A stretch of DNA of 50,892 nt, taken from an uncultured archaeon. GTDB taxonomy: Archaea; Aenigmatarchaeota; Aenigmatarchaeia; GW2011-AR5. Below are positions 15,740 through 41,651 of this stretch, piece after piece (the first letter of the stretch is position 1; every line of letters begins with the position of its first letter). The stretch spans positions 1 to 50,892 of the forward strand of contig CAYJUT010000001.1 in assembly GCA_964373415.1 (NCBI GenBank). The letters run 5' to 3'. The notes under the pieces were generated by a model that had not been told where the DNA came from, did no database searches, and saw only the letters and a list, made by a program, of their open reading frames with translations. A program made the translations under genes and the position numbers.

Positions 15740-17206
15740 CTATATATTCTGTGTGGTTGGTTCTATAACAAGCCTAGATGGTTGTTTTGATGGGTCTCTT
15801 TTTATTTTGTTGAATATGTATCGCCCAGGTCCTGGTGTTAAAACTATTTTTTTGAGTGCTCCCTCAACCTTTTCATTACCCGTCACTTTCCACGCAACAA
15901 AGCCCAATTCCTTCCCTAATTTCATTTCAAGAACTTTCTTTCTGTAAAAATCGTGCGCTACATCATACGCCTTCATGCGCTCTTCTGCTGTGAAGTTTTC
16001 TGTCTCAAAAACAGGTTTGTTCTTCCAGTGGGCAACATTGTACAAAAACGTTTCTTTATCCATAACAAATCTCCCATTCTGCTCGGCCCACTTGTACATT
16101 TCAGTGCCAGGATAAGGTACCATGTTGTAAAATGATACATGATCAACAGGCAGTTCCTGTGCTATCTTTAACGAATCCAGAAAATCCTCATAAGTTTCTT
16201 CCGGTGTGCCTATTATGAAAGTAGCGCCGACACCAAGCCCGACTTCTTTCGCCATTTTGATGGAATTTATTATAACGTCTATCTTTTCGCCTTTTTTCAT
16301 CGCGGCGAGCATCTTGTTGTTTCCGCCCTCGACACCGAATGAAACGTATATGCATCCCGCGTCTTTCATTTTCTGCAGAAGCTCCTTTGTAAGTCTGTCG
16401 GCACGTATTCCGTTGTCGCATTTCCAAGTTATTTTCAGTCCGCGCTCTATTATAAGATCGCATATTTTTTCTGCTCTTTTCATATCAAGAGTAAAGTTAT
16501 CATCATCTACTTCAAAACTCCTCCAACCTTTTTTGTACCAGTGCTCTATTTCATCAACAACATTTTCCGGACTTCTAGCACGAAATTTCAGTCCCATGCT
16601 AAGCCTTATTGAACAGAAAACGCACTGGTAAGGACATCCTCGGGATGTAATAATTGGCAAATGTCTTTCAGGATAACCAAGATATTTCTTCAGTTCAAAT
16701 CCTTCATAGTCCGGCAGCGGCAAATCGTCGAGATTGCTATCAAAAGGTCTTTCTGCATTTACAACTATTTTGTCTTCGTCGCGCCATATAAGGCCGAGTA
16801 TCTCGCTGGATGGCTTGCCCTGACATAACTCAAGCATCGGGAATTCGCCCTCTGCAAGAACGCCGAAATCTGCTAGGGTATCTACAAGCGACTGTTCCTT
16901 CAATGCGGCTACGTGAGGTCCGCCAATAACGACTTTGTAAGAATCGCTGTGCAATTTGATTCTGTTTATTGTCTCTTGTGACCTGTTGAATCCGAAACTG
17001 TAAATTGTTATACCAACGAATTGTGGTTTGAATTCGTCTAGCATCTCAAATACTTCTTCGTGTGAGTATCCTAGTCGCATGTCCATTATTTTCGTCTCTA
17101 TGCCATGCTGCTTCAGTACGGCAGATATGTAGGCTATGCCTGTATGCGGCACCTGAGCGCTGAAATAATCGCCGACACTGGCTGGAATAACAAAAGCTAT
17201 CTTCAT
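15740..17206 (-). CDS. B12-binding-domain radical SAM enzyme (intein-free paralog of 32506-34272)
   Basis: It has an N-terminal Rossmann-like domain (MKIAFVIP..), the motif SRGCPYQCVFC, and GVEGG and IIGTPEET. Its C-terminus is closely similar to the intein-bearing paralog. Confidence 0.9.
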   Translation of the reverse strand: MKIAFVIPASVGDYFSAQVPHTGIAYISAVLKQHGIETKIMDMRLGYSHEEVFEMLDEFKPQFVGITIYSFGFNRSQETINRIKLHSDSYKVVIGGPHVAALKEQSLVDTLADFGVLAEGEFPMLELCQGKPSSEILGLIWRDEDKIVVNAERPFDSNLDDLPLPDYEGFELKKYLGYPERHLPIITSRGCPYQCVFCSIRLSMGLKFRARSPENVVDEIEHWYKKGWRSFEVDDDNFTLDMKRAEKICDLIIERGLKITWKCDNGIRADRLTKELLQKMKDAGCIYVSFGVEGGNNKMLAAMKKGEKIDVIINSIKMAKEVGLGVGATFIIGTPEETYEDFLDSLKIAQELPVDHVSFYNMVPYPGTEMYKWAEQNGRFVMDKETFLYNVAHWKNKPVFETENFTAEERMKAYDVAHDFYRKKVLEMKLGKELGFVAWKVTGNEKVEGALKKIVLTPGPGRYIFNKIKRDPSKQPSRLVIEPTTQNI

Positions 17207-17286
17207 GAGTAACACTGTTACCATGTTACTTTTTCGTTTATTTATGCTTTTAGAAGGCTAGTACAATTTTCGTAATGTTCGTAATT

Positions 17287-22771: not shown

Positions 22772-24127
22772 ATGAAAGTTCTACTCATATTCCCGCCGCA
22801 AACGCTCACGGAGAGGTACGCACATAATGTAGAGGGGGTCGGCGGATTTCTGCCGCCGTTAGGTTTGTGCTACATGGCTGCCGTACTAGAAAGAGCCGGT
22901 CATGAAGCTCATATAATTGACTGTCCGGTAAATAACTACGGCACTGGCGACATAATGAGCGAAATATTGAACTTTAAGCCAGAACTTGTTGGCGTAGCAG
23001 CTATAACATCTCTTGCAGACGTTACAAAGGAGCTTTGTGACCTGATTAAGAATCAGTTCCCTGATGTAACTGTACTACTGGGCGGCCCGCATGCAACGAT
23101 AATGGCCAAAGAACTTTCAGAGACAACTCGTGCGGACATAATAGTCCAGGAAGAAGCCGACAACATAATAATCGATATAGTGAACAATATAGAAAAATAC
23201 AAGCAATTAAGAATAGTTAACGCAGGTAAGGTAAAAGACTTAGATTCTCTGCCATTTCCAGCCAGACATCTGCTCGACATGTCCAAATATTCCTCACTGC
23301 CAAACACATACAAAAAAGACCCGCATACATTCCAGATGGTAACAAGTCGTGGGTGTCCATTTACATGTACATTCTGTTTTGATGCAAAGGGACTGTTCAG
23401 GCAGAGAAGTGTAGCTAATGTTATGGCAGAGATACGACAGCTAAAAGATACCTACAAAATAAAGGAAATCGCATTTTGGGATGATATACTAACAATAAAC
23501 AAGAAATGGACGCATGAGTTCTGCAAGGAGATGGAAAAAGAGGGTATAATTTGGTCGTGTTACACAAGGCTCGACCTTATAGATGAACCAATGCTGCATG
23601 CTATGAAAAAAGCAGGTTGCTGGAATATATTCTTCGGCATCGAGTCAGGAGCTCAGGAGTTACTGGATAACATAACAAAGAAAATGACAGTAGAACAGAT
23701 GAAAAATGCTGTTAAGCTCGTCAAAAAAGCCGGGATAGATATAAGAGGTTCGTTCATGGTAGGGCTGCCTGGCGAAACTCCAGAACTGGCAAGAAAAACT
23801 ATCAAGCTTGCCATTGAAATGGACCCTGATTATGCGCAATTTTCAATTACAACACCATATCCAGGCACACAATTGTGGGATGACTATGAAAAATGGGGTA
23901 CATTGGACAAGAACTTTAAGAATTACCATGGCTGGTCGCCTGTCTTTGTTCCGCATGGTTACAAAAATAAGGAAGAGTTGCTTGAGATCCACCGCGAAGC
24001 GTTCAGACGCTTTTACATACGTCCTAAATATATCCTAAGAAGGGTATCAAAGATTCGCTCATTTTCCGAGCTTAAAAAAAATGTAACAGGCTTGAAAGTA
24101 GTCAAGGGCATGGTACTTAGCCAGTGA
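22772..24127 (+). CDS. B12-binding-domain radical SAM enzyme
   Basis: It has MKVLLIFPP.., SRGCPFTCTFC, FGIESG and MVGLPGETPE. Confidence 0.9.
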   Translation: MKVLLIFPPQTLTERYAHNVEGVGGFLPPLGLCYMAAVLERAGHEAHIIDCPVNNYGTGDIMSEILNFKPELVGVAAITSLADVTKELCDLIKNQFPDVTVLLGGPHATIMAKELSETTRADIIVQEEADNIIIDIVNNIEKYKQLRIVNAGKVKDLDSLPFPARHLLDMSKYSSLPNTYKKDPHTFQMVTSRGCPFTCTFCFDAKGLFRQRSVANVMAEIRQLKDTYKIKEIAFWDDILTINKKWTHEFCKEMEKEGIIWSCYTRLDLIDEPMLHAMKKAGCWNIFFGIESGAQELLDNITKKMTVEQMKNAVKLVKKAGIDIRGSFMVGLPGETPELARKTIKLAIEMDPDYAQFSITTPYPGTQLWDDYEKWGTLDKNFKNYHGWSPVFVPHGYKNKEELLEIHREAFRRFYIRPKYILRRVSKIRSFSELKKNVTGLKVVKGMVLSQ

Positions 24128-25663: not shown

Positions 25664-27154
25664 ATGGCTGACATACTGGGCATTTATCCAAAAACTGGCT
25701 ACGACATTAAAAACTCTTCAGTGGAGCTACCTTTAGGATTATTATCTACAGTAGCCACTGTACACGGTGACCACGAGGTTAAAATACTCGACCAGCGTGT
25801 TGATGAAGATTTTGAAAGTCATTTTTCTAACGAACTATCAAAAGGCCCGCGTGTTGTTCTTATACCATCCATGACGGGGACCCAGCTAAAATACGCTCTT
25901 GATATATCGAGGGCTGTAAAAAACAATTCCAAATCGACCGTATTGTGGGGCGGGGTCCATGCAACCCTTATGCCTGAACAAACAATAGGCCACAAACTAA
26001 TTGACATGATAGTTATAGGGGAAGGTGAATTTGTTTTACAGAATTTAATGAGTGCTCTAGACGGGAAGGCAAAGCTTGACGAAGTAAAAGGTATAGCCTA
26101 CAAAGAAAATGGATCGGTAAAAATGAACCCTCGTGCAGATTCACCAAATCCGAATCTGATACCAGAAGTTCCTTATTATTTAGTAGATATTGAAAATTAT
26201 GTAAAAAGCGGTGGCATAGCCTTTGACGATAAAGAGCGAACATTGCCGTTTATCTCAAGTCGTGGCTGTCCTTACACATGTACGTTTTGCAGCACTGCTG
26301 GCATAAGCAAAGGTAACTGGAGGAGCATGACGGCTGAATTAACTTACGAACGTGTAATGAAAATGGTTAAAAAATACAACATTAATGTCGTCAAATTTTA
26401 TGATGAAAACTTTACATCAAACCCGAAACGTGCAGAGGCTATAGCAGAATTAGTAAATAACCAGTTTGGGTGGTCAATGCAAGCACGAATGGATAATATG
26501 CTCATAACCGACATGAAAAAACTAGAAGAAGGTGGCCTGCGCGTAGTCGAGCCTGGTGTAGAGTCTGGAAGTGATAGAATATTAAAATTTATAAACAAAG
26601 CAGAAACCAAGGCGACAATGATTGCAGCAAACAAAAAACTTGCCAAGACAGGTATAAAGGCGTTCTATAATTTCATGATGGGGTTCCCCGGCGAAAGTTA
26701 TGAGGAACTCATGGAAACAGTCGATTTGGCATTACAGCTTGTCAAAGAGAACCCGAATGCACATATAACGCAATTTTATATTTTCGTCCCTTATCTAGGG
26801 GCGCCTCTATTCGATTATGCGGTACAGCAGGGTTTTGAAGTGCCAAAAACGTTGGAAGAATGGGTTGCCTTCAGCAGGCAGCAAACGTATACACCATGGA
26901 TACAGGACAAAAAAGAGATGTTGGAAACTATAATGTACACGTCAAAGTTTGTTGATGGAAAACGTCTCTGTCAAGTTCTAAGAAATACCAAAGTACCAAA
27001 ATTCTTTATACGTGCGTTATCTTCAAACTACAGGAAAAGCTGGGAGAAGCATAAATTCAAGAAAACGACTAGCGTGAAGGTGTTAGACATGATGGTAAAG
27101 AGAAACTTTGGATGGGAGTCGGGAACTACTTTTGAAATGGCGCAGAATGAATAG
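25664..27154 (+). CDS. B12-binding-domain radical SAM enzyme
   Basis: It has SRGCPYTCTFC, PGVESGS and MMGFPGESYEE. Confidence 0.9.
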   Translation: MADILGIYPKTGYDIKNSSVELPLGLLSTVATVHGDHEVKILDQRVDEDFESHFSNELSKGPRVVLIPSMTGTQLKYALDISRAVKNNSKSTVLWGGVHATLMPEQTIGHKLIDMIVIGEGEFVLQNLMSALDGKAKLDEVKGIAYKENGSVKMNPRADSPNPNLIPEVPYYLVDIENYVKSGGIAFDDKERTLPFISSRGCPYTCTFCSTAGISKGNWRSMTAELTYERVMKMVKKYNINVVKFYDENFTSNPKRAEAIAELVNNQFGWSMQARMDNMLITDMKKLEEGGLRVVEPGVESGSDRILKFINKAETKATMIAANKKLAKTGIKAFYNFMMGFPGESYEELMETVDLALQLVKENPNAHITQFYIFVPYLGAPLFDYAVQQGFEVPKTLEEWVAFSRQQTYTPWIQDKKEMLETIMYTSKFVDGKRLCQVLRNTKVPKFFIRALSSNYRKSWEKHKFKKTTSVKVLDMMVKRNFGWESGTTFEMAQNE

Positions 27155-31574: not shown

Positions 31575-32450
31575 TTAGAATCCCCATAAACCCTTATGCC
31601 ACTTGAGTATTGAAAGGTCCATGCGGTAAATTGCCATAAATAGGCATAACCATGTGCATGGCGGGGAAATTGACCAAAATATCCATGAAAATCGCGACTT
31701 CCAGCGTGGGAAGAATTTATCAGCAAAAATTCTGTGGTATTTTCCGCATAAGTAGAAATGTTCGTAATCTTTGTCAGCCCCGCCATTGCGTATCTTTATA
31801 TGCCATACAAATGCTTCTGGCATATACATGAATTTTTTGCCCTTTTTTATTAAGGCCATCTGAGGAAAGTTCTCTTCCCTGAAACCATAACCTTCTCTAT
31901 AAAAATTGTGAAACCTGCCAACCGCTTTCAGTTCCTTGGTAAGGAACGACATATTAGCACCTATCATCGCACTACATTCTGTGGGTTTATTTGGTATCCA
32001 TGCACAGTTAAAGCGCACATCTCCAAAGGAATTAACAAAGTTCTGTTTTCTGTTAGTATATTTGTAAGGTACTATTGGTCTTAGATTTGTATCAGAGTTC
32101 ACAGAAGGTCCTGCGACAGCTACTATATCGCTACTAAAACCGTAGCCTTTTATGATATTTTCAAGCCACCTTTCCTTTGGGACGGCATCGTCATCAAGAA
32201 ATGCCAGTATTTCGGTTTTGGTATTTTTTAGTATTAGATTTCTAGCAGCTGGCTGGCGGACACGTTTTTTAAGATGGAGATATTTTATTGGAAGTTTGTA
32301 TTTTTTAATTACTTCCCGTGTTAAATTATTATCGCTCGTATCTACTATTATAATTCTCTCTGATTTTGTTGTCTGATTCTTTACGCCATCAAGACACTTT
32401 GTTATTATATCCGACCTGTTATGTGTTATGATACCAATCGTGACGTTCAT
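31575..32450 (-). CDS. GT2 glycosyltransferase
   Basis: It has VTIGIITHNR and the FLDDDAVP (DxD) motif. Confidence 0.8.
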   Translation of the reverse strand: MNVTIGIITHNRSDIITKCLDGVKNQTTKSERIIIVDTSDNNLTREVIKKYKLPIKYLHLKKRVRQPAARNLILKNTKTEILAFLDDDAVPKERWLENIIKGYGFSSDIVAVAGPSVNSDTNLRPIVPYKYTNRKQNFVNSFGDVRFNCAWIPNKPTECSAMIGANMSFLTKELKAVGRFHNFYREGYGFREENFPQMALIKKGKKFMYMPEAFVWHIKIRNGGADKDYEHFYLCGKYHRIFADKFFPRWKSRFSWIFWSISPPCTWLCLFMAIYRMDLSILKWHKGLWGF

Positions 32451-32505: not shown

Positions 32506-34272
32506 TTATTTGCCGCTTATTAGACCTTTTATCACCATCTTGGCTGCACGCGGTATGTCCCTTTTCTTTATCGAAGTCATGTTAGCATAATAATAAGCTC
32601 GCACGCGCTCCTCTGCTGTATATTCCGGAGTGTCAAATACCGGTTTTGGTCTTGCACCTATGTGAAATCCGTCTTTCCAGTCCCTATGTATACGTGCTCT
32701 AGAATCATTTTTGACCTGTTCCCAAACCTCTGTGCCAGGGTATGGAACTAGTATGCCCCAAGAAGCTGTTATACCAAGCCTTTTTGCAAACTCCATTGAC
32801 CTCTTATCAGCTTCATAAGTGCTTCCTATTAGCCCTATTATGAAGAATCCGTGAACCTTTATTCCCGCGGCCTGTGCGAGTCTTATTCCTTTCTCAACAT
32901 CCGCTAGTCTCTCACCCTTCTTTATTTTATCGAATACCTCTGGATCGCCGCTCTCGACTCCGATAGACATTGAATAGCAGCCGGCTTGCTTCATGAGTGT
33001 GCAAAGCTCTTCATCCAGCCTATCAGCCCTTATTCCGTTCGGGCACGTCCACTTCATGTCTAATTTTTCATCTACGAAAAGCCTGCATATGTCCTTTGCC
33101 CTGTCCATCTGCAGTGTGAAATTGTCATCGAGAACTTTGAATTCTTTGCTGCCGTATTTTTCGTGAGCGTATCGCAATTCAGCCAGTATGTTCTCGCCGG
33201 ATCGCGTTCTGAATTTCCTGCCTATGACAGTTGGCACATTACAATTTGAGACTGCTATTCCATTCACGGTATAAGTATGATCATTCTGAACTTCAAGATT
33301 ATATACGTAACCGGAAAACTCGATCTCTTCTATAGAACTTATCGAAATAGGATTTTCATATTTGGTACAATGCAATAATAGTTGATTTCCTGAGTATACG
33401 GTCTGTTGAATTGATGGAACTATTTCTACAACCTTATCGCCTATTTTTAATTTATCTGAACTTACCATTTCAAAGTCGTTTCTTGCTACTTTTATTTTGT
33501 GATTTGGCGTAGTTATTATAGGCTCTTTTCCTTCTATATATATTTTTATCATTTTTCCTGAATAATGGCGTTTGAAAGTCCTTACAACATTTTTCCATCT
33601 GCCTTTATCTGTGAGAACTCTCATACCGCTATTAATATCCTTTATTTCAATCATTCCGGAATCTGTAATTACTTTCATATCTTCTCTAAAGCAATATGTG
33701 CATGTATAGGGACATCCGCGCGAAGTTACAAGCGGCCAATTCTCAATAGGTCGAATTTTCCCGTCAACATTTATCGAATCAAAATCATCGTAAACTGGAA
33801 ATGGTAAATCATCAAGACCTGCTATCCATTCACTTGCATGGTTTTGTATAACTTGTCCGTCTTTTCTGTAAATTACACCCTCTATTTCAGAAGGGTCTAC
33901 ACCAGACAGAAGTTGCTTGAAAACATACTCGGCCTCCCCGAAAATACCGAGGTCAAAAATAGAGTTGTCTTTCAATAGATTATAACCGTCAACCATTACG
34001 TGGGGGCCGCCGGCAACTATTTTTGCGTTCGGGTTGATTTTTTTGACCATTTCAGCGACCATTATAGACTCGTCCAACGTAAATGACTTGATAGATATAC
34101 CAACATAATCGGCGTCTTTCGTGACTTGCAGTCTTTTTTCCACATTGCCAGATCTGTTGACAAAATCGACTACATTAACATCGTGATCATTTCTTACATT
34201 GGCTGCTATGGAGGCTATTCCGTTATTCAAGCCTTCCCATACGCCCTTTGGATCGATAAAAACCACTTTCAT
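32506..34272 (-). CDS. B12-binding-domain radical SAM enzyme precursor containing a mini-intein
   Basis: The ATG at 34272 is preceded by AGGTG. The radical-SAM motif is split as GCPYTCTY-[150 aa]-CNVPT. The exteins align with the paralog at 15740-17206. Confidence 0.9.
   Translation of the reverse strand: MKVVFIDPKGVWEGLNNGIASIAANVRNDHDVNVVDFVNRSGNVEKRLQVTKDADYVGISIKSFTLDESIMVAEMVKKINPNAKIVAGGPHVMVDGYNLLKDNSIFDLGIFGEAEYVFKQLLSGVDPSEIEGVIYRKDGQVIQNHASEWIAGLDDLPFPVYDDFDSINVDGKIRPIENWPLVTSRGCPYTCTYCFREDMKVITDSGMIEIKDINSGMRVLTDKGRWKNVVRTFKRHYSGKMIKIYIEGKEPIITTPNHKIKVARNDFEMVSSDKLKIGDKVVEIVPSIQQTVYSGNQLLLHCTKYENPISISSIEEIEFSGYVYNLEVQNDHTYTVNGIAVSNCNVPTVIGRKFRTRSGENILAELRYAHEKYGSKEFKVLDDNFTLQMDRAKDICRLFVDEKLDMKWTCPNGIRADRLDEELCTLMKQAGCYSMSIGVESGDPEVFDKIKKGERLADVEKGIRLAQAAGIKVHGFFIIGLIGSTYEADKRSMEFAKRLGITASWGILVPYPGTEVWEQVKNDSRARIHRDWKDGFHIGARPKPVFDTPEYTAEERVRAYYYANMTSIKKRDIPRAAKMVIKGLISGK
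33244..33693 (-). mobile_element. Mini-intein (150 aa, no homing endonuclease domain)
   Basis: Cys1 lies in CFREDMKVITDSG (block A), TPNH is block B, and YVYNLEVQNDHTYTVNGIAVSN covers blocks F/G with the terminal Asn. A +1 Cys follows. The three paralogs in this window lack the insert. Confidence 0.85.
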
Positions 34273-34292
34273 ATTCACACCTAGATTGTGTC

Positions 34293-34382
34293 TTATAGCT
34301 CTACAAGGAAACAAACAAGATATTATTTCCTTGTGAGCTATATATGAACCCAGTAAATCATGTCAGAAATCTTTACTGGGTT
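34293..34382. repeat. Modular hairpin element, copy 1 (compact)
   Basis: The 25-nt arm TTATAGCTCTACAAGGAAACAAACA (34293-34317) is followed by a 3-nt spacer and the 19-nt arm TATTATTTCCTTGTGAGCT (34321-34339). An 11-bp perfect hairpin follows (34347-34357 / 34372-34382). Both arms recur at 50697-50799. Confidence 0.8.
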
Positions 34383-34510: not shown

Positions 34511-35635
34511 ATGATGAAAGTTGCGCTTTGTACTGAAATTCTTTATCCGCTTTATGGAGTAGAAAGACGTGTTTACGAACTTGGCAAGAGATTGCCACAT
34601 TATGGTATAGATGTTGATATATACACGTCTACTAGCAGACAGCACTTCAAAAAACTCAATATAATAAAAGTCAGTCACACTACAATAACAAACCCGCCAA
34701 AACGTAATTATGCATTTTGCATAGATTATATGTCAAATTTGTTTAGGCAACTAATAAAATGCGATTATGACTTAATACATGCAGAAGGGCATATGTCATT
34801 GGTGCCATGTTCCACGGCAGCTATACTCAGAAAAAAACCAAGTGTGGCAACGGTTCACGATCTTTATCTCACAGACTGGAGAGAGATGTACAAAAGCGCG
34901 GCATCAATTGGAGGTATACCATTTGAGATGTTATCCTGTAAGATGCCTTTCGACCTTATATTGACAGTTAACGCATCCATCAAGAGTAAGATGATCGACA
35001 TATTAAAAACTAATCCTAAAAAACTACAGATTCTTCACAGTGGCATTGATACAAAATACATAGATTCCATAAAAGGGGCGAAAAAAGATGGTTCAATAAT
35101 TTACGTTGGGCGGCTTGTGCCCCAGAAAAATGTAGGATTACTAATAAAGGCTTACGCAGCCCTCCCAACTGTTATACGCAAAAATAATCCGTTGAAAATA
35201 ATAGGTGAAGGCTCGGAACGTCTCAGACTAGAATACCTTGCAAAAACACTTGGTGTAGATGTTAATTTTGTTGGAAAAATAGAGAGTCATAAAGATGTTT
35301 TGAAGGCGATAAAGGCCGCTTCTTTATTTGTTTTGCCGTCCAAAAGAGAAAGTTTTGGAATAACAATATTGGAAGCTATGCAATCCGGTGTTCCTGTAAT
35401 ATCAACTGCTACAGAAGGTCCTATAGACCATATAAAAAATGGTGAAAATGGATTTCTAGTTGGAATAGATAACTATAAGAATTTGGCAGAAAAAATATCT
35501 GACGTGTTGACAAACAAGAAACTTCATAATAAACTATCTAAAAATGGAATGGCGTATGCAGTAAAACATGACTGGGAAAATATAACAAATAACATAGCGT
35601 CGATTTATAAGATGGTTTATGAGAGTAAAAAATAA
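34511..35635 (+). CDS. GT4 glycosyltransferase
   Basis: It has MKVALCTE..YGVERRV and ESFGITILEAMQSGVPVIS. Confidence 0.85.
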   Translation: MMKVALCTEILYPLYGVERRVYELGKRLPHYGIDVDIYTSTSRQHFKKLNIIKVSHTTITNPPKRNYAFCIDYMSNLFRQLIKCDYDLIHAEGHMSLVPCSTAAILRKKPSVATVHDLYLTDWREMYKSAASIGGIPFEMLSCKMPFDLILTVNASIKSKMIDILKTNPKKLQILHSGIDTKYIDSIKGAKKDGSIIYVGRLVPQKNVGLLIKAYAALPTVIRKNNPLKIIGEGSERLRLEYLAKTLGVDVNFVGKIESHKDVLKAIKAASLFVLPSKRESFGITILEAMQSGVPVISTATEGPIDHIKNGENGFLVGIDNYKNLAEKISDVLTNKKLHNKLSKNGMAYAVKHDWENITNNIASIYKMVYESKK

Positions 35636-40244: not shown

Positions 40245-41651
40245 TTAATCACTTAAAGTCTTGTCCTCGCCAGTTGCCATGCGTATTATTTTTGAAAATA
40301 TTATGGCGGATCCTATTGCCAGCGGTGCTGAAAATAATATGCTGAACCTGACAGCCACTACTGTGGCGAGAAATGGCCCAAGGAACCAAACAAGCAGGAG
40401 CAGGACTGTATCTATGTGCTCCCTCTTTTTGTAATAGGAATAAAGAAGGTATATCAGCGTGTATATCATCAGGAAAAACGACGACAACAAAATAAGCGGG
40501 CCGCCTACGACACTCGTCCGTTCTATTATTTCTCTTGGGCCGCCAGATTGCTGTAGCTCTGCCACAGATACATAAACATTAGGGAATTGTACATCCTCTC
40601 CTTTTATCGATTGGAATTGGATCGGTCCAGCTAGTGCGCTGTCTATTTTGGATAATCCATAAGAGGGAATTGTCAGGACAAACGCCAATATCATATAAAG
40701 CAAGAAGCTCATCACTATGTATTTCGTATCATGCCATGCCATTTTAATATTTCTTCTTTTCAAAATCGTAAAAATTATCTTTAGAATTATAAAGCCAGCA
40801 AACAACCAGAAAATATACCAATAACCAGCCCATGTAGAGTACCAAACCCATAGAACTATACCAGTCAATATTGAGTAAAGTAGAAGTTTTTTATTAAATG
40901 ATTCGGCCAGGCTCGCATATTTGTATGTGAGTATAAGTGCTGCCATGGTTATCATCGACATTAGGATGACGATCGCATCCGAGTCCGGGTCGCCGCCTAA
41001 GGAGCGTGACAAGTTGCTTATATCGAAGACATAGATGAATGCGGCAAACACACCTGCCTTCCTGTCATAAAGCGCTTTACCTATGAAATAAAGCGGTATT
41101 ACGGCCAACGTAGCTAGAAATGGGGGAAAATATATAAGAAACTCCCAAAGAGGCAAGTGAACAAAGTTGTTTACAAGCATGTAGCCATAAGCGCCAATGT
41201 AAAAGTAAGGATATATCCACTGTGGGGGTCTGTAAAATCCATCTGGCGTTAGTTGATAAACGTCTAACGTCGGTAAAACGCCATTGTTTTGTACAATCTC
41301 GTCTATCCATCTGTAAAATACATAAGAATCTATATTGCGTAAGTAGGGCCATCTGTAATCTACAAGACGAACGTACATGGACAATAGTATAATGATTACT
41401 ATTGCAATTATTGTCCATCTGTTTTTTAATAAGTGAATTAATTTCTCTCGTTTATGTGTCTTTTGATGTGTATGAACGTACATGTAATACAAAAGTGCAC
41501 CAACCAATGGCAGAATTAAAGTTAGAGCTATCCATTTTTTAGGTTTTTTAGTTTTTAGGATGTCGGAAACTGTCCATACAAAAGAAGTTATCCATAAGGC
41601 GATTAGAATAATCAAAGATGTTGCGATTACCCCAACAATTTCATGTGTCAT
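40245..41651 (-). CDS. aglB: AglB/STT3 oligosaccharyltransferase, N-terminal transmembrane part
   Basis: Polytopic protein. It has an EL1-like loop (RLVDYRWPYLRNIDSYVFYRW..NG) and the EL5 SVSE/TIXE-type motif (YVSVAELQQSGG). Confidence 0.7.
   Translation of the reverse strand: MTHEIVGVIATSLIILIALWITSFVWTVSDILKTKKPKKWIALTLILPLVGALLYYMYVHTHQKTHKREKLIHLLKNRWTIIAIVIIILLSMYVRLVDYRWPYLRNIDSYVFYRWIDEIVQNNGVLPTLDVYQLTPDGFYRPPQWIYPYFYIGAYGYMLVNNFVHLPLWEFLIYFPPFLATLAVIPLYFIGKALYDRKAGVFAAFIYVFDISNLSRSLGGDPDSDAIVILMSMITMAALILTYKYASLAESFNKKLLLYSILTGIVLWVWYSTWAGYWYIFWLFAGFIILKIIFTILKRRNIKMAWHDTKYIVMSFLLYMILAFVLTIPSYGLSKIDSALAGPIQFQSIKGEDVQFPNVYVSVAELQQSGGPREIIERTSVVGGPLILLSSFFLMIYTLIYLLYSYYKKREHIDTVLLLLVWFLGPFLATVVAVRFSILFSAPLAIGSAIIFSKIIRMATGEDKTLSD

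What the first reader, a model, noticed from the sequence alone, without database searches (positions are those of the whole stretch)
33244..33693. Mini-intein inserted at the third cysteine of the CX3CX2C iron-sulfur motif of a glycan-cluster radical SAM enzyme
**Seen in sequence.** The ORF reads ..TSRGCPYTCTY | CFREDMKVITDSG..(150 aa)..YVYNLEVQNDHTYTVNGIAVSN | CNVPTVIGRKFRTRS.
- The three other B12-rSAM paralogs in this window read straight through: RGCPYQCVFCSIRLSMGLKFRARS, RGCPFTCTFCFD and RGCPYTCTFCST.
- The insert has the Hint/intein blocks: Cys1 (block A), TPNH (block B), and blocks F/G ending in Asn, followed by a +1 Cys.
- No endonuclease-sized domain is present.
- The penultimate residue is Ser rather than the usual His.

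**Established knowledge.** Inteins target catalytic sites, but they are mostly found in replication, repair and nucleotide-metabolism proteins.

**Inference.**
- The +1 splice nucleophile is the same Cys that must ligate the 4Fe-4S cluster, so the enzyme cannot bind its cluster until it splices.
- The neighbouring cluster cysteines could trap Cys1 or Cys+1 in disulfides.
- Together these would give a redox- or Fe-S-dependent conditional switch on a glycan or lipid modification step.
Basis: partly seen in the sequence, partly recalled or inferred. Interest (0 to 1): 0.88.

Follow-up and report, generated by a model that had tools for sequence, protein, structure and literature searches.

The report
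Mini-intein in a radical SAM cysteine motif
A real 150-residue self-splicing protein insert (mini-intein) sits exactly at the third iron-sulfur-binding cysteine of a sugar-pathway radical SAM enzyme in a DPANN archaeon. The same spot turns out to hold inteins in many radical SAM enzymes, so this is a new example of a known kind, not a new mechanism.

Summary
Window 33244-33693 (- strand) encodes a 150-aa Hint-fold mini-intein. It passes the curated cut-offs of three intein models, and an AlphaFold2 (AF2) model (pLDDT 89.6) matches solved inteins. It lies between Tyr(-1) and the third Cys of the CX3CX2C motif of a B12-binding radical SAM (rSAM) gene (32506-34272) in an AglB/STT3 glycan cluster.

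Intein-free orthologs from Aenigmatarchaeota, in the same gene neighbourhood, read RGCPYTCTYCNVPTVIGRKFR. That is the predicted splice product. Fifteen intein-bearing orthologs all keep Cys1, TxxH, Ser-Asn and Cys+1. Synonymous sites are saturated and both intein and exteins are under purifying selection, so the intein very probably splices.

The site is not exceptional. Its closest relatives are inteins at the same site in other B12-rSAMs, one with a LAGLIDADG endonuclease. A genome scan found 24 such inteins among 73 related ones, mostly in AmmeMemoRadiSam enzymes of bacteria and archaea. Four genomes carry two inteins, at Cys2 and Cys3.

The proposed Cys(-3)/Cys1 redox trap has a published precedent, the Pyrococcus abyssi MoaA intein. 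An adaptive redox or Fe-S switch here is untested, and intein-free sister alleles argue it is not needed. Verdict: new member of a known kind, moderate interest.

The parts
32506..34272 (-). Host gene: B12-binding radical SAM precursor (588 aa plus stop). The real start is ATG 34272.
   Evidence: PF02310 and PF04055 match on either side of the intein. All orthologs start MKVVF/MKIVF.
33694..34272 (-). N-extein (193 aa): B12-binding domain plus the first two cluster cysteines.
33694..33714 (-). C(-7)PYTC(-3)TY: first two cysteines of CX3CX2C. Cys(-3) is at 33700-33702 and Cys(-7) at 33712-33714.
   Evidence: Read from the sequence. Motif scan.
33244..33693 (-). Mini-intein, 150 aa, Hint fold, no homing endonuclease.
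   Evidence: PF14890, TIGR01445 and TIGR01443 all above cut-off. AF2 model and Foldseek matches. GC 31.6% versus 41-45% in the exteins.
33691..33693 (-). Cys1 (block A nucleophile). It occupies the third-Cys position of the motif in the unspliced precursor.
   Evidence: Invariant in 12 full-length orthologous inteins and in P0146 and P0253.
33499..33510 (-). Block B TPNH (Thr62 = B:7, His65 = B:10).
   Evidence: T and H are invariant. Block nomenclature from PMC4031507.
33367..33408 (-). Residues 96-109: variable, low-confidence loop. I take it (not tested) to be the usual endonuclease insertion point, probably a relic of endonuclease loss.
   Evidence: pLDDT below 50 only here. Gapped and variable in the alignment. 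The related intein P0129 carries a LAGLIDADG domain (protein residues 413-479) between its splicing blocks.
33244..33306 (-). Blocks F and G: VYNLEVQNDHTYTVNGIAVSN. Asn132 is at F:4 (usually Asp), His139 at F:13, Ser149 is penultimate (usually His), Asn150 is terminal.
   Evidence: V130, Y131, N132, H139 and N150 are invariant. Alignment to KlbA places N132 opposite the F:4 Asp.
33241..33243 (-). Cys+1: splice-junction nucleophile and third [4Fe-4S] ligand of the mature enzyme.
   Evidence: Alignment to paralogs and to intein-free orthologs.
32506..33243 (-). C-extein (245 aa plus stop): the remainder of the radical SAM core.
   Evidence: PF04055 matches residues 344-495 of the precursor.
34511..35635 (+). 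Divergently transcribed GT4 glycosyltransferase, a conserved neighbour.
   Evidence: Pfam. Same neighbour in L002, L004, L006 and L007.
31575..32450 (-). Downstream GT2 glycosyltransferase (context).
   Evidence: Same 291-aa GT2 in L002 and L003.
40245..41651 (-). STT3/AglB oligosaccharyltransferase (context: N-glycosylation cluster).
   Evidence: PF02516. STT3 also lies near the orthologs.

Best explanation
This is a splicing-competent mini-intein with the class-1 nucleophiles. It belongs to an intein lineage that specialises in the third cysteine of the radical SAM CX3CX2C motif.

Proposed pathway (inferred, not shown):
1. The gene is translated as a 588-aa precursor in which the Hint domain interrupts the cluster loop.
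2. Cys1 undergoes an N-S acyl shift, and the N-extein is transferred to Cys+1.
3. Asn150 cyclises and an S-N shift follows. This yields a 438-aa enzyme reading ...GCPYTCTY-CNVPTVIGR..., in which Cys+1 becomes the third [4Fe-4S] ligand.

Splicing is therefore obligatory for enzyme activity (inferred).

The element is most likely a selfish relic. It lost its homing endonuclease, is inherited mainly vertically in Aenigmatarchaeota, and has been precisely lost, or exchanged by recombination, in many lineages. It survives because only clean splicing is tolerated at this essential residue.

Four thiols lie close together at or next to the splice junctions: Cys-7, Cys-3, Cys1 and Cys+1. Splicing is therefore probably sensitive to oxidation and thiophilic metals in vitro, as a by-product of the chemistry. 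Nothing indicates that the host uses this as a regulatory switch.
For: Intein identity:
- Three curated HMMs are passed.
- The AF2 model has pLDDT 89.6 and Foldseek gives TM 0.70-0.78 to solved inteins.

Exact insertion:
- The paralog alignment shows a clean 150-residue insertion.
- 438-aa orthologs, up to 89% identical, read RGCPYTCTYCNVPTVIGRKFR.

True presence/absence polymorphism:
- Intein-bearing L006 and intein-free L007 share the order STT3, hypothetical, methyltransferase, GT4, rSAM, UDP-Glc dehydrogenase, NTP-transferase, epimerase, GT2. L004 and L005 show the same.
- Intein-bearing alleles are scattered in the extein tree beside intein-free sisters.

Splicing competence (evolutionary argument):
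- All 15 intein-bearing proteins keep the Ser-Asn|Cys+1 C-terminal junction. The 12 full-length inteins also keep Cys1, T..H and N132/H139; three proteins are truncated at the N-terminus.
- dS is saturated (above 1.6).
- Intein dN is 0.22-0.35, with omega about 0.09-0.2.
- Extein omega in intein-bearing lineages is about 0.02-0.04.

Lineage specialised on this site:
- The best per-domain relatives, among the 150 best representative-library hits plus 24 ORFs from the genome scan, are inteins at the same site in other B12-rSAMs: P0146 (75.5 bits), P0253 (62.3) and P0129 (61.3, with LAGLIDADG).
- 24 of 73 related inteins in species-representative genomes sit at this cysteine, in AmmeMemoRadiSam (TIGR04337, 323 and 271 bits against a cut-off of 220), SPASM-type and B12 rSAMs.

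Missing penultimate His:
- It is a lineage trait. The residue is S, A, R, G or H at this position.
- Splicing without this His is documented: Chen, Benner and Perler 2000, cited in PMC4031507.
Against: - No splicing assay exists for this or any orthologous protein.
- Two assisting residues are non-canonical: F:4 is Asn rather than Asp, and G:6 is Ser rather than His. Kinetics could therefore be slow or condition-dependent.
- The intein and extein trees are only roughly congruent, so horizontal exchange is not excluded.
- Long persistence (saturated dS) of an element that costs the host could also be read as a hint of benefit.
Confidence: 0.75

Rival explanations
1. Adaptive conditional switch. 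The host exploits the intein so that the enzyme matures only under reducing or Fe-S-replete conditions. The gate would be a Cys-3/Cys1 or Cys1/Cys+1 disulfide, or metal or cluster binding to Cys-7, Cys-3 and Cys1.
For: - Cys-3 and Cys1 have the same geometry as the redox trap shown for the P. abyssi MoaA intein. A Cys1/Cys+1 disulfide was shown for the Pab PolII intein (PMC3922620, PMC10663303).
- The precursor still spells CX3CX2C, using Cys1.
- Divalent cations inhibit inteins (PMC4031507).
- The intein has persisted past synonymous saturation.
- The same site is occupied in many oxygen-labile rSAM enzymes.
Against: - About three quarters of close orthologs, including sister alleles in identical gene neighbourhoods, lack the intein.
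- Flanking extein residues do not differ between intein-bearing and intein-free alleles.
- The recurrence is equally explained by homing endonucleases targeting the most conserved DNA of the superfamily.
- There are no experimental data.
Confidence: 0.15
2. Degenerate, non-splicing Hint insert. The gene would be inactivated, or the insert kept as a fixed domain (BIL-like or structural).
For: The penultimate His and the F:4 Asp are absent. No endonuclease is present.
Against: - Cys1, TxxH, the terminal Asn and Cys+1 are invariant across the 12 full-length inteins compared.
- Exteins of intein-bearing alleles are under strong purifying selection, omega about 0.02. That is not expected for a gene split at an essential cluster ligand.
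- Intein dN/dS is well below 1.
Confidence: 0.05
3. Assembly or annotation artefact (a chimeric contig creating an apparent insertion).
For: The source is a metagenome-assembled contig.
Against: The same in-frame insertion occurs at the same codon in at least 15 protein clusters from several independent source collections (NCBI, ENA, JGI, Logan). Their sequences have diverged to 52-79% identity.
Confidence: 0.01

Closest known systems
Pyrococcus abyssi MoaA intein (Callahan et al. 2011 NSMB, as summarised in PMC3922620 and PMC10663303)
   Same: It is an intein in an oxygen-labile radical SAM enzyme, with an N-extein Cys at -3 next to the catalytic Cys1. The Cys-3/Cys1 disulfide reversibly blocks splicing. 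The window has the same C-x-x|C1 arrangement.
   Different: The host is MoaA (molybdenum cofactor synthesis), not a B12-rSAM of a glycan cluster, and the organism is a Thermococcales species, not a DPANN archaeon. I could not obtain the MoaA sequence or the primary paper. Whether it is inserted at the identical motif cysteine is therefore inferred from 'Cys-3' and not verified. Redox control is not tested here.
Inteins at the same cysteine in other radical SAM enzymes (found here): B12-rSAMs P0146, P0253 and P0129; AmmeMemoRadiSam rSAM enzymes (L013, L020 and others); a SPASM-type rSAM (L074)
   Same: Insertion immediately before the third Cys of CX3CX2C. All share Cys1, TxxH, the VYNLEV..DH block F, a terminal Asn and Cys+1. 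The penultimate residue is often not His. These are the closest sequence relatives of the window intein.
   Different: The host families and phyla differ and include Bacteria. Many are 399-454 aa, the size of endonuclease-carrying inteins. The window intein is a 150-aa mini form confined to one Aenigmatarchaeota ortholog group.
Methanocaldococcus jannaschii KlbA mini-intein (PDB 2jmz)
   Same: It is the best sequence match among solved structures (E 2e-7). It is an archaeal mini-intein with a similar block F (IYDLTVEDNHTY).
   Different: KlbA is a class 2 intein with Ala1 (PMC4031507 and the reference list of PMC3922620). The window intein has Cys1 and the class-1 nucleophile set, and it has Asn rather than Asp at F:4.
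NCBIfam NF045703 'tetraether lipid synthase Tes, intein-containing'
   Same: It is a curated model for another radical SAM enzyme that carries an intein. The window intein gives a weak partial hit to it (38-50 bits).
   Different: The score is far below the cut-off of 1700, so the host is not Tes. The insertion site in Tes was not determined here.

Membership tests
Intein (Hint superfamily, class 1 splicing mechanism) | Hint-fold splicing domain recognised by curated models | tested here: met
   PF14890 47.2 bits (cut-off 35.8); TIGR01445 33.2 (24.5); TIGR01443 21.7 (15.6). AF2 pLDDT 89.6 and Foldseek TM 0.70-0.78 to solved inteins.
Intein (Hint superfamily, class 1 splicing mechanism) | Cys or Ser at position 1, and a C-terminal Asn followed by Cys, Ser or Thr at +1 | tested here: met
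   Cys1, Asn150 and Cys+1 are present in the window and invariant in the 12 full-length orthologous inteins. The C-terminal junction is also kept in 3 partial sequences.
Intein (Hint superfamily, class 1 splicing mechanism) | Block B Thr (B:7) and His (B:10) | tested here: met
   T62-P-N-H65. T and H are invariant in 14 aligned inteins.
Intein (Hint superfamily, class 1 splicing mechanism) | Assisting residues: penultimate His (G:6) and Asp at F:4 (common, not obligatory) | tested here: not met
   Ser149 and Asn132 occupy these positions; His139 at F:13 is present. Related same-site inteins have S, A, R, G or H at G:6. Splicing without the G:6 His is documented (reference 74 of PMC4031507).
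Intein (Hint superfamily, class 1 splicing mechanism) | In-frame insertion at a conserved host site, with intein-free homologs contiguous across it | tested here: met
   Three in-window paralogs. More than 40 intein-free orthologs read ...CTYCNVP..., in the same gene neighbourhood.
Intein (Hint superfamily, class 1 splicing mechanism) | Demonstrated protein splicing (ligated exteins plus free intein) | not testable with these tools
   Only evolutionary evidence is available: extein omega about 0.02 in intein-bearing lineages and conserved catalytic residues.
Mini-intein (no homing endonuclease) | About 130-200 aa, with no LAGLIDADG or HNH domain between blocks B and F | tested here: met
   150 aa. 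Only Hint-type Pfam hits at significant E-values. The model is a single all-beta domain with a 14-residue disordered loop.
Redox-trap inteins (Pab MoaA type) | N-extein Cys at -3 positioned to form a disulfide with Cys1 | tested here: met
   The sequence reads C(-3)-T-Y|C1. This is a sequence-level test only.
Redox-trap inteins (Pab MoaA type) | Splicing reversibly blocked by oxidation | not testable with these tools
   It needs in vitro or in vivo splicing assays under defined redox conditions.
Class B (B12-binding) radical SAM enzymes (host) | N-terminal B12-binding domain, a radical SAM core and CX3CX2C | tested here: met
   PF02310 47.7 bits and PF04055 78.3 bits. The motif is restored by in-silico splicing. 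The closest solved chains are AprD4 6fd2 (3e-27), TokK and CysS.
HpnJ, PhpK, BchE and other named B12-rSAM equivalogs (host) | Score above the NCBIfam curated cut-off | tested here: not met
   The best is HpnJ at 190.6 bits against a cut-off of 577.6. The host is an unnamed family.
Bacterial intein-like (BIL) or other non-splicing Hint domains | A Hint domain without the conserved Asn plus +1 nucleophile pair, in variable rather than conserved host sites | tested here: not met
   The Asn150/Cys+1 pair is invariant and the insertion is at an invariant catalytic motif. The PT-HINT and Vint Pfam hits are below their cut-offs.

The most novel reading that the evidence does not exclude
Inteins at the cluster-ligating cysteines of radical SAM enzymes might form a widespread class of Fe-S or redox-gated maturation switches. 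They were seen here in at least four B12-rSAM families, in AmmeMemoRadiSam enzymes of bacteria and archaea and in a SPASM-type enzyme, sometimes as two inteins at Cys2 and Cys3. In the precursor, the intein's own Cys1 completes a CX3CX2C site. Disulfide formation or metal/cluster binding there would hold splicing until the cell is reducing and able to assemble clusters.
Probability: 0.1. Interest if true: 0.75.

Novelty: new member of a known kind. Interest (0 to 1): 0.36.

Why it matters
For this locus, the annotated 588-aa 'radical SAM protein' is a precursor. The working enzyme is 438 aa, and heterologous expression or structure work should use the spliced sequence or an intein-free ortholog.

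More generally, the follow-up shows that the radical SAM CX3CX2C motif is a recurrent intein landing site across phyla. I found only one such case discussed in the searchable literature, and even there only as a Cys-3/Cys1 redox trap (MoaA). That gives a ready set of natural precursors for testing whether thiol or metal chemistry at the splice junction gates maturation of oxygen-labile enzymes. The set includes mini and endonuclease-size forms and double-intein alleles. It also offers small archaeal mini-inteins with Cys at both junctions and no penultimate His as possible protein-engineering tools.

Tried and rejected
1. Word-indexed homolog search with the intein alone found nothing.
2. A profile of same-site inteins with flanks (A3) in the same tool returned only short, unrelated intein fragments. 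It did not even recover the family itself, so it was useless for surveying hosts.
3. The primary MoaA paper (PMC3087850, PMID 21460844) and a JBC review I tried to open under the id PMC4031506 are not held. The MoaA insertion site could not be verified, and no tool gave access to the P. abyssi sequence.
4. Exact look-up of the window protein P0001 in the contig index found no record. The organism is inferred from the names of ortholog sources (Candidatus Aenigmatarchaeota).
5. A viral-contig scan with A3 gave 249 intein relatives, but none of the best 80 sits at a radical SAM motif. There is thus no evidence that viruses carry this site's inteins.
6. Literature searches for intein together with radical SAM, CX3CX2C, AmmeMemoRadiSam or tetraether lipid synthase found nothing on the insertion site.
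7. BIL or pretoxin-Hint identity was rejected. Those hits are below cut-off and the Asn/Cys+1 pair is conserved.
8. I looked for co-adaptation of junction residues between intein-bearing and intein-free alleles and saw none.
Full report
**1. Observation.** The ORF on the minus strand (32506-34272; ATG at 34272 gives MKVVF...) encodes 588 aa. It reads ...TSRGCPYTCTY | CFREDMKV...(150 aa)...NGIAVSN | CNVPTVIGRKFRTRS. The insert is exactly 33244-33693. Cys1 is 33691-33693, Asn150 is 33244-33246 and Cys+1 is 33241-33243. The motif C(-7)PYTC(-3)TY is 33694-33714. The three other B12-binding radical SAM (rSAM) paralogs in the window (15740-17224, 22772-24127, 25664-27154) read straight through the motif. 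A four-way alignment shows a clean 150-residue insertion.

**2. It is an intein.** The insert alone passes three curated models:
- Pfam Intein_splicing: 47.2 bits against a gathering score of 35.8.
- TIGR01445 intein_Nterm: 33.2 against 24.5.
- TIGR01443 intein_Cterm: 21.7 against 15.6.

The best solved relative by sequence is the M. jannaschii KlbA mini-intein (2jmz, E 2e-7). An AlphaFold2 model built from 14 related inteins has mean pLDDT 89.6 and pTM 0.82 and is all-beta. Only residues 96-109 are disordered. Foldseek returns Hedgehog Hint and dozens of inteins at probability 1.00 and TM 0.70-0.78.

The catalytic set is Cys1, Thr62/His65 (block B), His139 (F:13), Asn150 and Cys+1. Two assisting positions are non-canonical. 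F:4 is Asn132, aligned to the Asp of KlbA, and the penultimate residue is Ser149. No endonuclease domain is present. A family profile finds no other intein in the window.

**3. Orthologs: a presence/absence polymorphism.** Searching the in-silico spliced 438-aa protein found 1371 homologs. The close clade is named Candidatus Aenigmatarchaeota (DPANN archaea) where a source gives a name. It contains many 436-442-aa proteins that read RGCPYTCTYCNVPTVIGRKFRTRSG across the junction, which is exactly the predicted ligation product. The best of these is P0002 at 89% identity.

Fifteen clusters carry the intein: 11 full-length, one truncated in the N-extein but with a complete intein, and three that begin inside the intein. 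None of the more distant orthologs (below about 70% identity) has it. Intein-bearing and intein-free genes occupy the same neighbourhood. L006 (with intein) and L007 (without) share the order STT3, hypothetical, methyltransferase, GT4, rSAM, UDP-glucose dehydrogenase, NTP-transferase, epimerase, GT2. L004 and L005 show the same.

In a neighbour-joining tree of spliced exteins, the intein-bearing alleles are scattered and each has intein-free sisters. This is the classic sporadic distribution of an intein. It arises from repeated precise loss, allelic recombination or past homing.

**4. Evidence that it still splices.** This evidence is evolutionary, not biochemical.
- The 12 full-length inteins are 52-79% identical (mean 63%). 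Their exteins are 72-90% identical (mean 80%).
- 36 intein columns are invariant. They include Cys1, T..H, VYN, DHTY and the terminal Ser-Asn.
- Between four intein-bearing genes, synonymous sites are saturated (dS above 1.6 or not computable).
- Intein dN is 0.22-0.35 (omega about 0.09-0.2). Extein dN is 0.08-0.13 (omega about 0.02-0.04).

A gene interrupted at an essential cluster ligand would not stay under such constraint unless the insert was removed from the protein. The intein is more AT-rich than its host in both the window and L002, with GC3 of 0.25 against 0.42 and 0.33 against 0.55. That fits weaker codon selection or a foreign origin.

**5. The site is a recurrent intein niche.** A full HMMER scan of 1.84 billion representative proteins gave 2766 intein hits. 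Only one was a close relative (P0006, the same family).

I ranked the listed hits, plus ORFs from the genome scan below, by single-domain score. The nearest relatives are inteins at the same position in other B12-rSAM families:
- P0146: GCAYKCTY|C...HN|C, 75.5 bits.
- P0253: CWYGKCTF|C...AN|C, 62.3 bits.
- P0129: GCPNSCTY|C...AN|C, a 441-aa intein with a LAGLIDADG domain.

A scan of 185,579 species-representative genomes with a profile of these inteins returned 79 loci. Of 73 with the block-F signature, 24 (plus one probable) are inserted immediately before the third Cys of a radical SAM motif. The hosts are:
- The Aenigmatarchaeota orthologs and Woesearchaeota B12-rSAMs.
- Many AmmeMemoRadiSam-system enzymes. 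In-silico spliced L013 and L020 score 323 and 271 bits on TIGR04337, whose cut-off is 220. They come from Deltaproteobacteria, Acidobacteriota, Omnitrophota, Rokubacteria, Gemmataceae, Thermoflexales, Thermoplasmata and others.
- One SPASM-type, AhbD/MoaA-like enzyme (L074).

The inserts come as mini forms (158-181 aa) and as longer forms of 399-454 aa, the size of endonuclease-carrying inteins. Their penultimate residue is S, A, R, G or H, so the missing His is a lineage trait.

In four Thermoplasmata or Methanobacteriota genomes (L015-L018) the motif carries two inteins: GCNWL|C...HN|CRY|C...SN|CQNAD. One lies before Cys2 and one before Cys3, three residues apart. Pfam finds two splicing-domain stretches there.

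**6. Mechanism.** The nucleophile set of a class 1 intein is present, so I infer the standard four-step pathway. Cys+1 becomes the third [4Fe-4S] ligand after ligation. Until then the insert interrupts the rSAM core, so splicing is a prerequisite for activity (inferred).

In the precursor the intein's Cys1 directly follows C-T-Y, so a CX3CX2C string still exists. Whether it can bind metal is unknown.

Four cysteines lie close together at or next to the splice junctions: -7, -3, 1 and +1. Published cases show that such arrangements can block splicing:
- A Cys-3/Cys1 disulfide in the P. abyssi MoaA intein. MoaA is itself a radical SAM enzyme (established knowledge).
- A Cys1/Cys+1 disulfide in the Pab PolII intein (PMC3922620; PMC10663303).
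- Inhibition of inteins by divalent cations (PMC4031507).

Redox or metal sensitivity in vitro is therefore plausible. An adaptive switch is not supported. Most close orthologs do without the intein in the same pathway, and recurrence at this site is what homing endonucleases that target highly conserved DNA would produce.

**7. Host and context.** The host has a B12-binding domain and a radical SAM core. It reaches no named NCBIfam equivalog; the best, HpnJ, scores 190 bits against a cut-off of 577. Its closest solved relative is the aminoglycoside-sugar diol-dehydratase AprD4 (6fd2, E 3e-27), followed by TokK and CysS. The window is a glycan and N-glycosylation island. It holds STT3/AglB, PMT_2, GT2 and GT4 transferases, epimerases and dehydratases, UDP-GlcNAc 2-epimerase, a carbamoyltransferase, a flippase-like protein and four B12-rSAM paralogs. 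A sugar-modifying role is inferred.

**8. Comparison and novelty.** This is a new member of a known kind. Inteins in radical SAM enzymes are on record: the Pab MoaA intein, and NCBIfam NF045703 for intein-containing Tes. The Cys-3/Cys1 redox-trap idea is published.

What is new here is the host (a DPANN glycan-cluster B12-rSAM) and the documentation that the third, and sometimes the second, cluster cysteine is a populated intein site across many rSAM families. I found no paper in the searchable library describing that pattern. I could not verify that the MoaA intein sits at the identical cysteine.

**9. Verdict.** Interest is moderate (0.36). An intein specialist would not be surprised by the element itself. 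The superfamily-wide hot spot and the double-intein alleles are the more interesting leads.

Noticed in passing
L015:2501-3100 and upstream (also L016, L017, L018): AmmeMemoRadiSam-like radical SAM genes of Thermoplasmata and Methanobacteriota MAGs carry two inteins in the cluster motif, one before Cys2 and one before Cys3: GCNWL|C...VVHN|CRY|CFLPN...AVSN|CQNADISQ. Only a 3-residue extein (C-R-Y) lies between them. The related L013 has only the Cys3 intein and splices in silico to GCNWLCRYCQNADISQ.
   Followed up: partly
L013, L020, L022, L024-L026, L029, L036, L046, L062, L066, L076, L085 (genome-contig loci): The third cysteine of CX3CX2C in AmmeMemoRadiSam-system radical SAM enzymes is a frequent intein site in both Bacteria and Archaea. 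Inserts are mini (158-181 aa) or 399-454 aa, the size of endonuclease-carrying inteins. 24 of 73 related inteins found in species-representative genomes sit at this cysteine. Most of the rest share a C-extein beginning CFVL, which I take to be the class II ribonucleotide reductase site (host not checked).
   Followed up: partly
P0129 (950 aa, residues 207-647): A different B12-rSAM family carries a 441-aa intein with a LAGLIDADG endonuclease and HTH motifs at the same site (GCPNSCTY|C...AVAN|C). It is a candidate mobile ancestor form of the window's mini-intein.
   Followed up: partly
window 33298-33300 and 33247-33249: This intein lineage has Asn, not Asp, at block F position 4 (VYNLEV) and a non-His penultimate residue. 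Both are invariant in the Aenigmatarchaeota family. The VYN signature is shared by every intein recovered with that block-F search pattern, including those with the CFVL-type C-extein.
   Followed up: partly
window 15740-17224, 22772-24127, 25664-27154, 32506-34272: Four B12-binding radical SAM paralogs (25-36% identical) lie in one roughly 30-kb glycan and N-glycosylation island together with STT3/AglB, two PMT_2 proteins and a carbamoyltransferase. Only one paralog carries the intein, although the N-side motif is nearly identical in all four.
   Followed up: partly
window 33244-33693 versus flanks: The intein is markedly more AT-rich than its host gene (GC 31.6% against 41-45%; GC3 0.25 against 0.42). 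The same offset is seen in the ortholog L002 (GC3 0.33 against 0.55).
   Followed up: yes
P0084 (342 aa, ENA contig of 1584 bp): A protein whose N-terminal half is a Na+/H+-exchanger-like membrane segment (PF00999). It joins the rSAM C-extein 13 residues after the splice junction (...RYSSHN|RSGRNIFDEL...). This is possibly a chimeric assembly or a rearrangement near the intein site.
   Followed up: no
window 34273-34314: The mechanical ORF list extends the host gene to a TTG at 34314 (14 extra residues). All orthologs start at the ATG at 34272.
   Followed up: yes
L002:7807-8070 and L003:6043-6306: The closest intein-bearing ortholog loci have a small PQ-loop/MtN3 (SWEET-like) gene between the rSAM and the GT2 gene. 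It is absent from the window, where only 55 bp separate the two genes.
   Followed up: no
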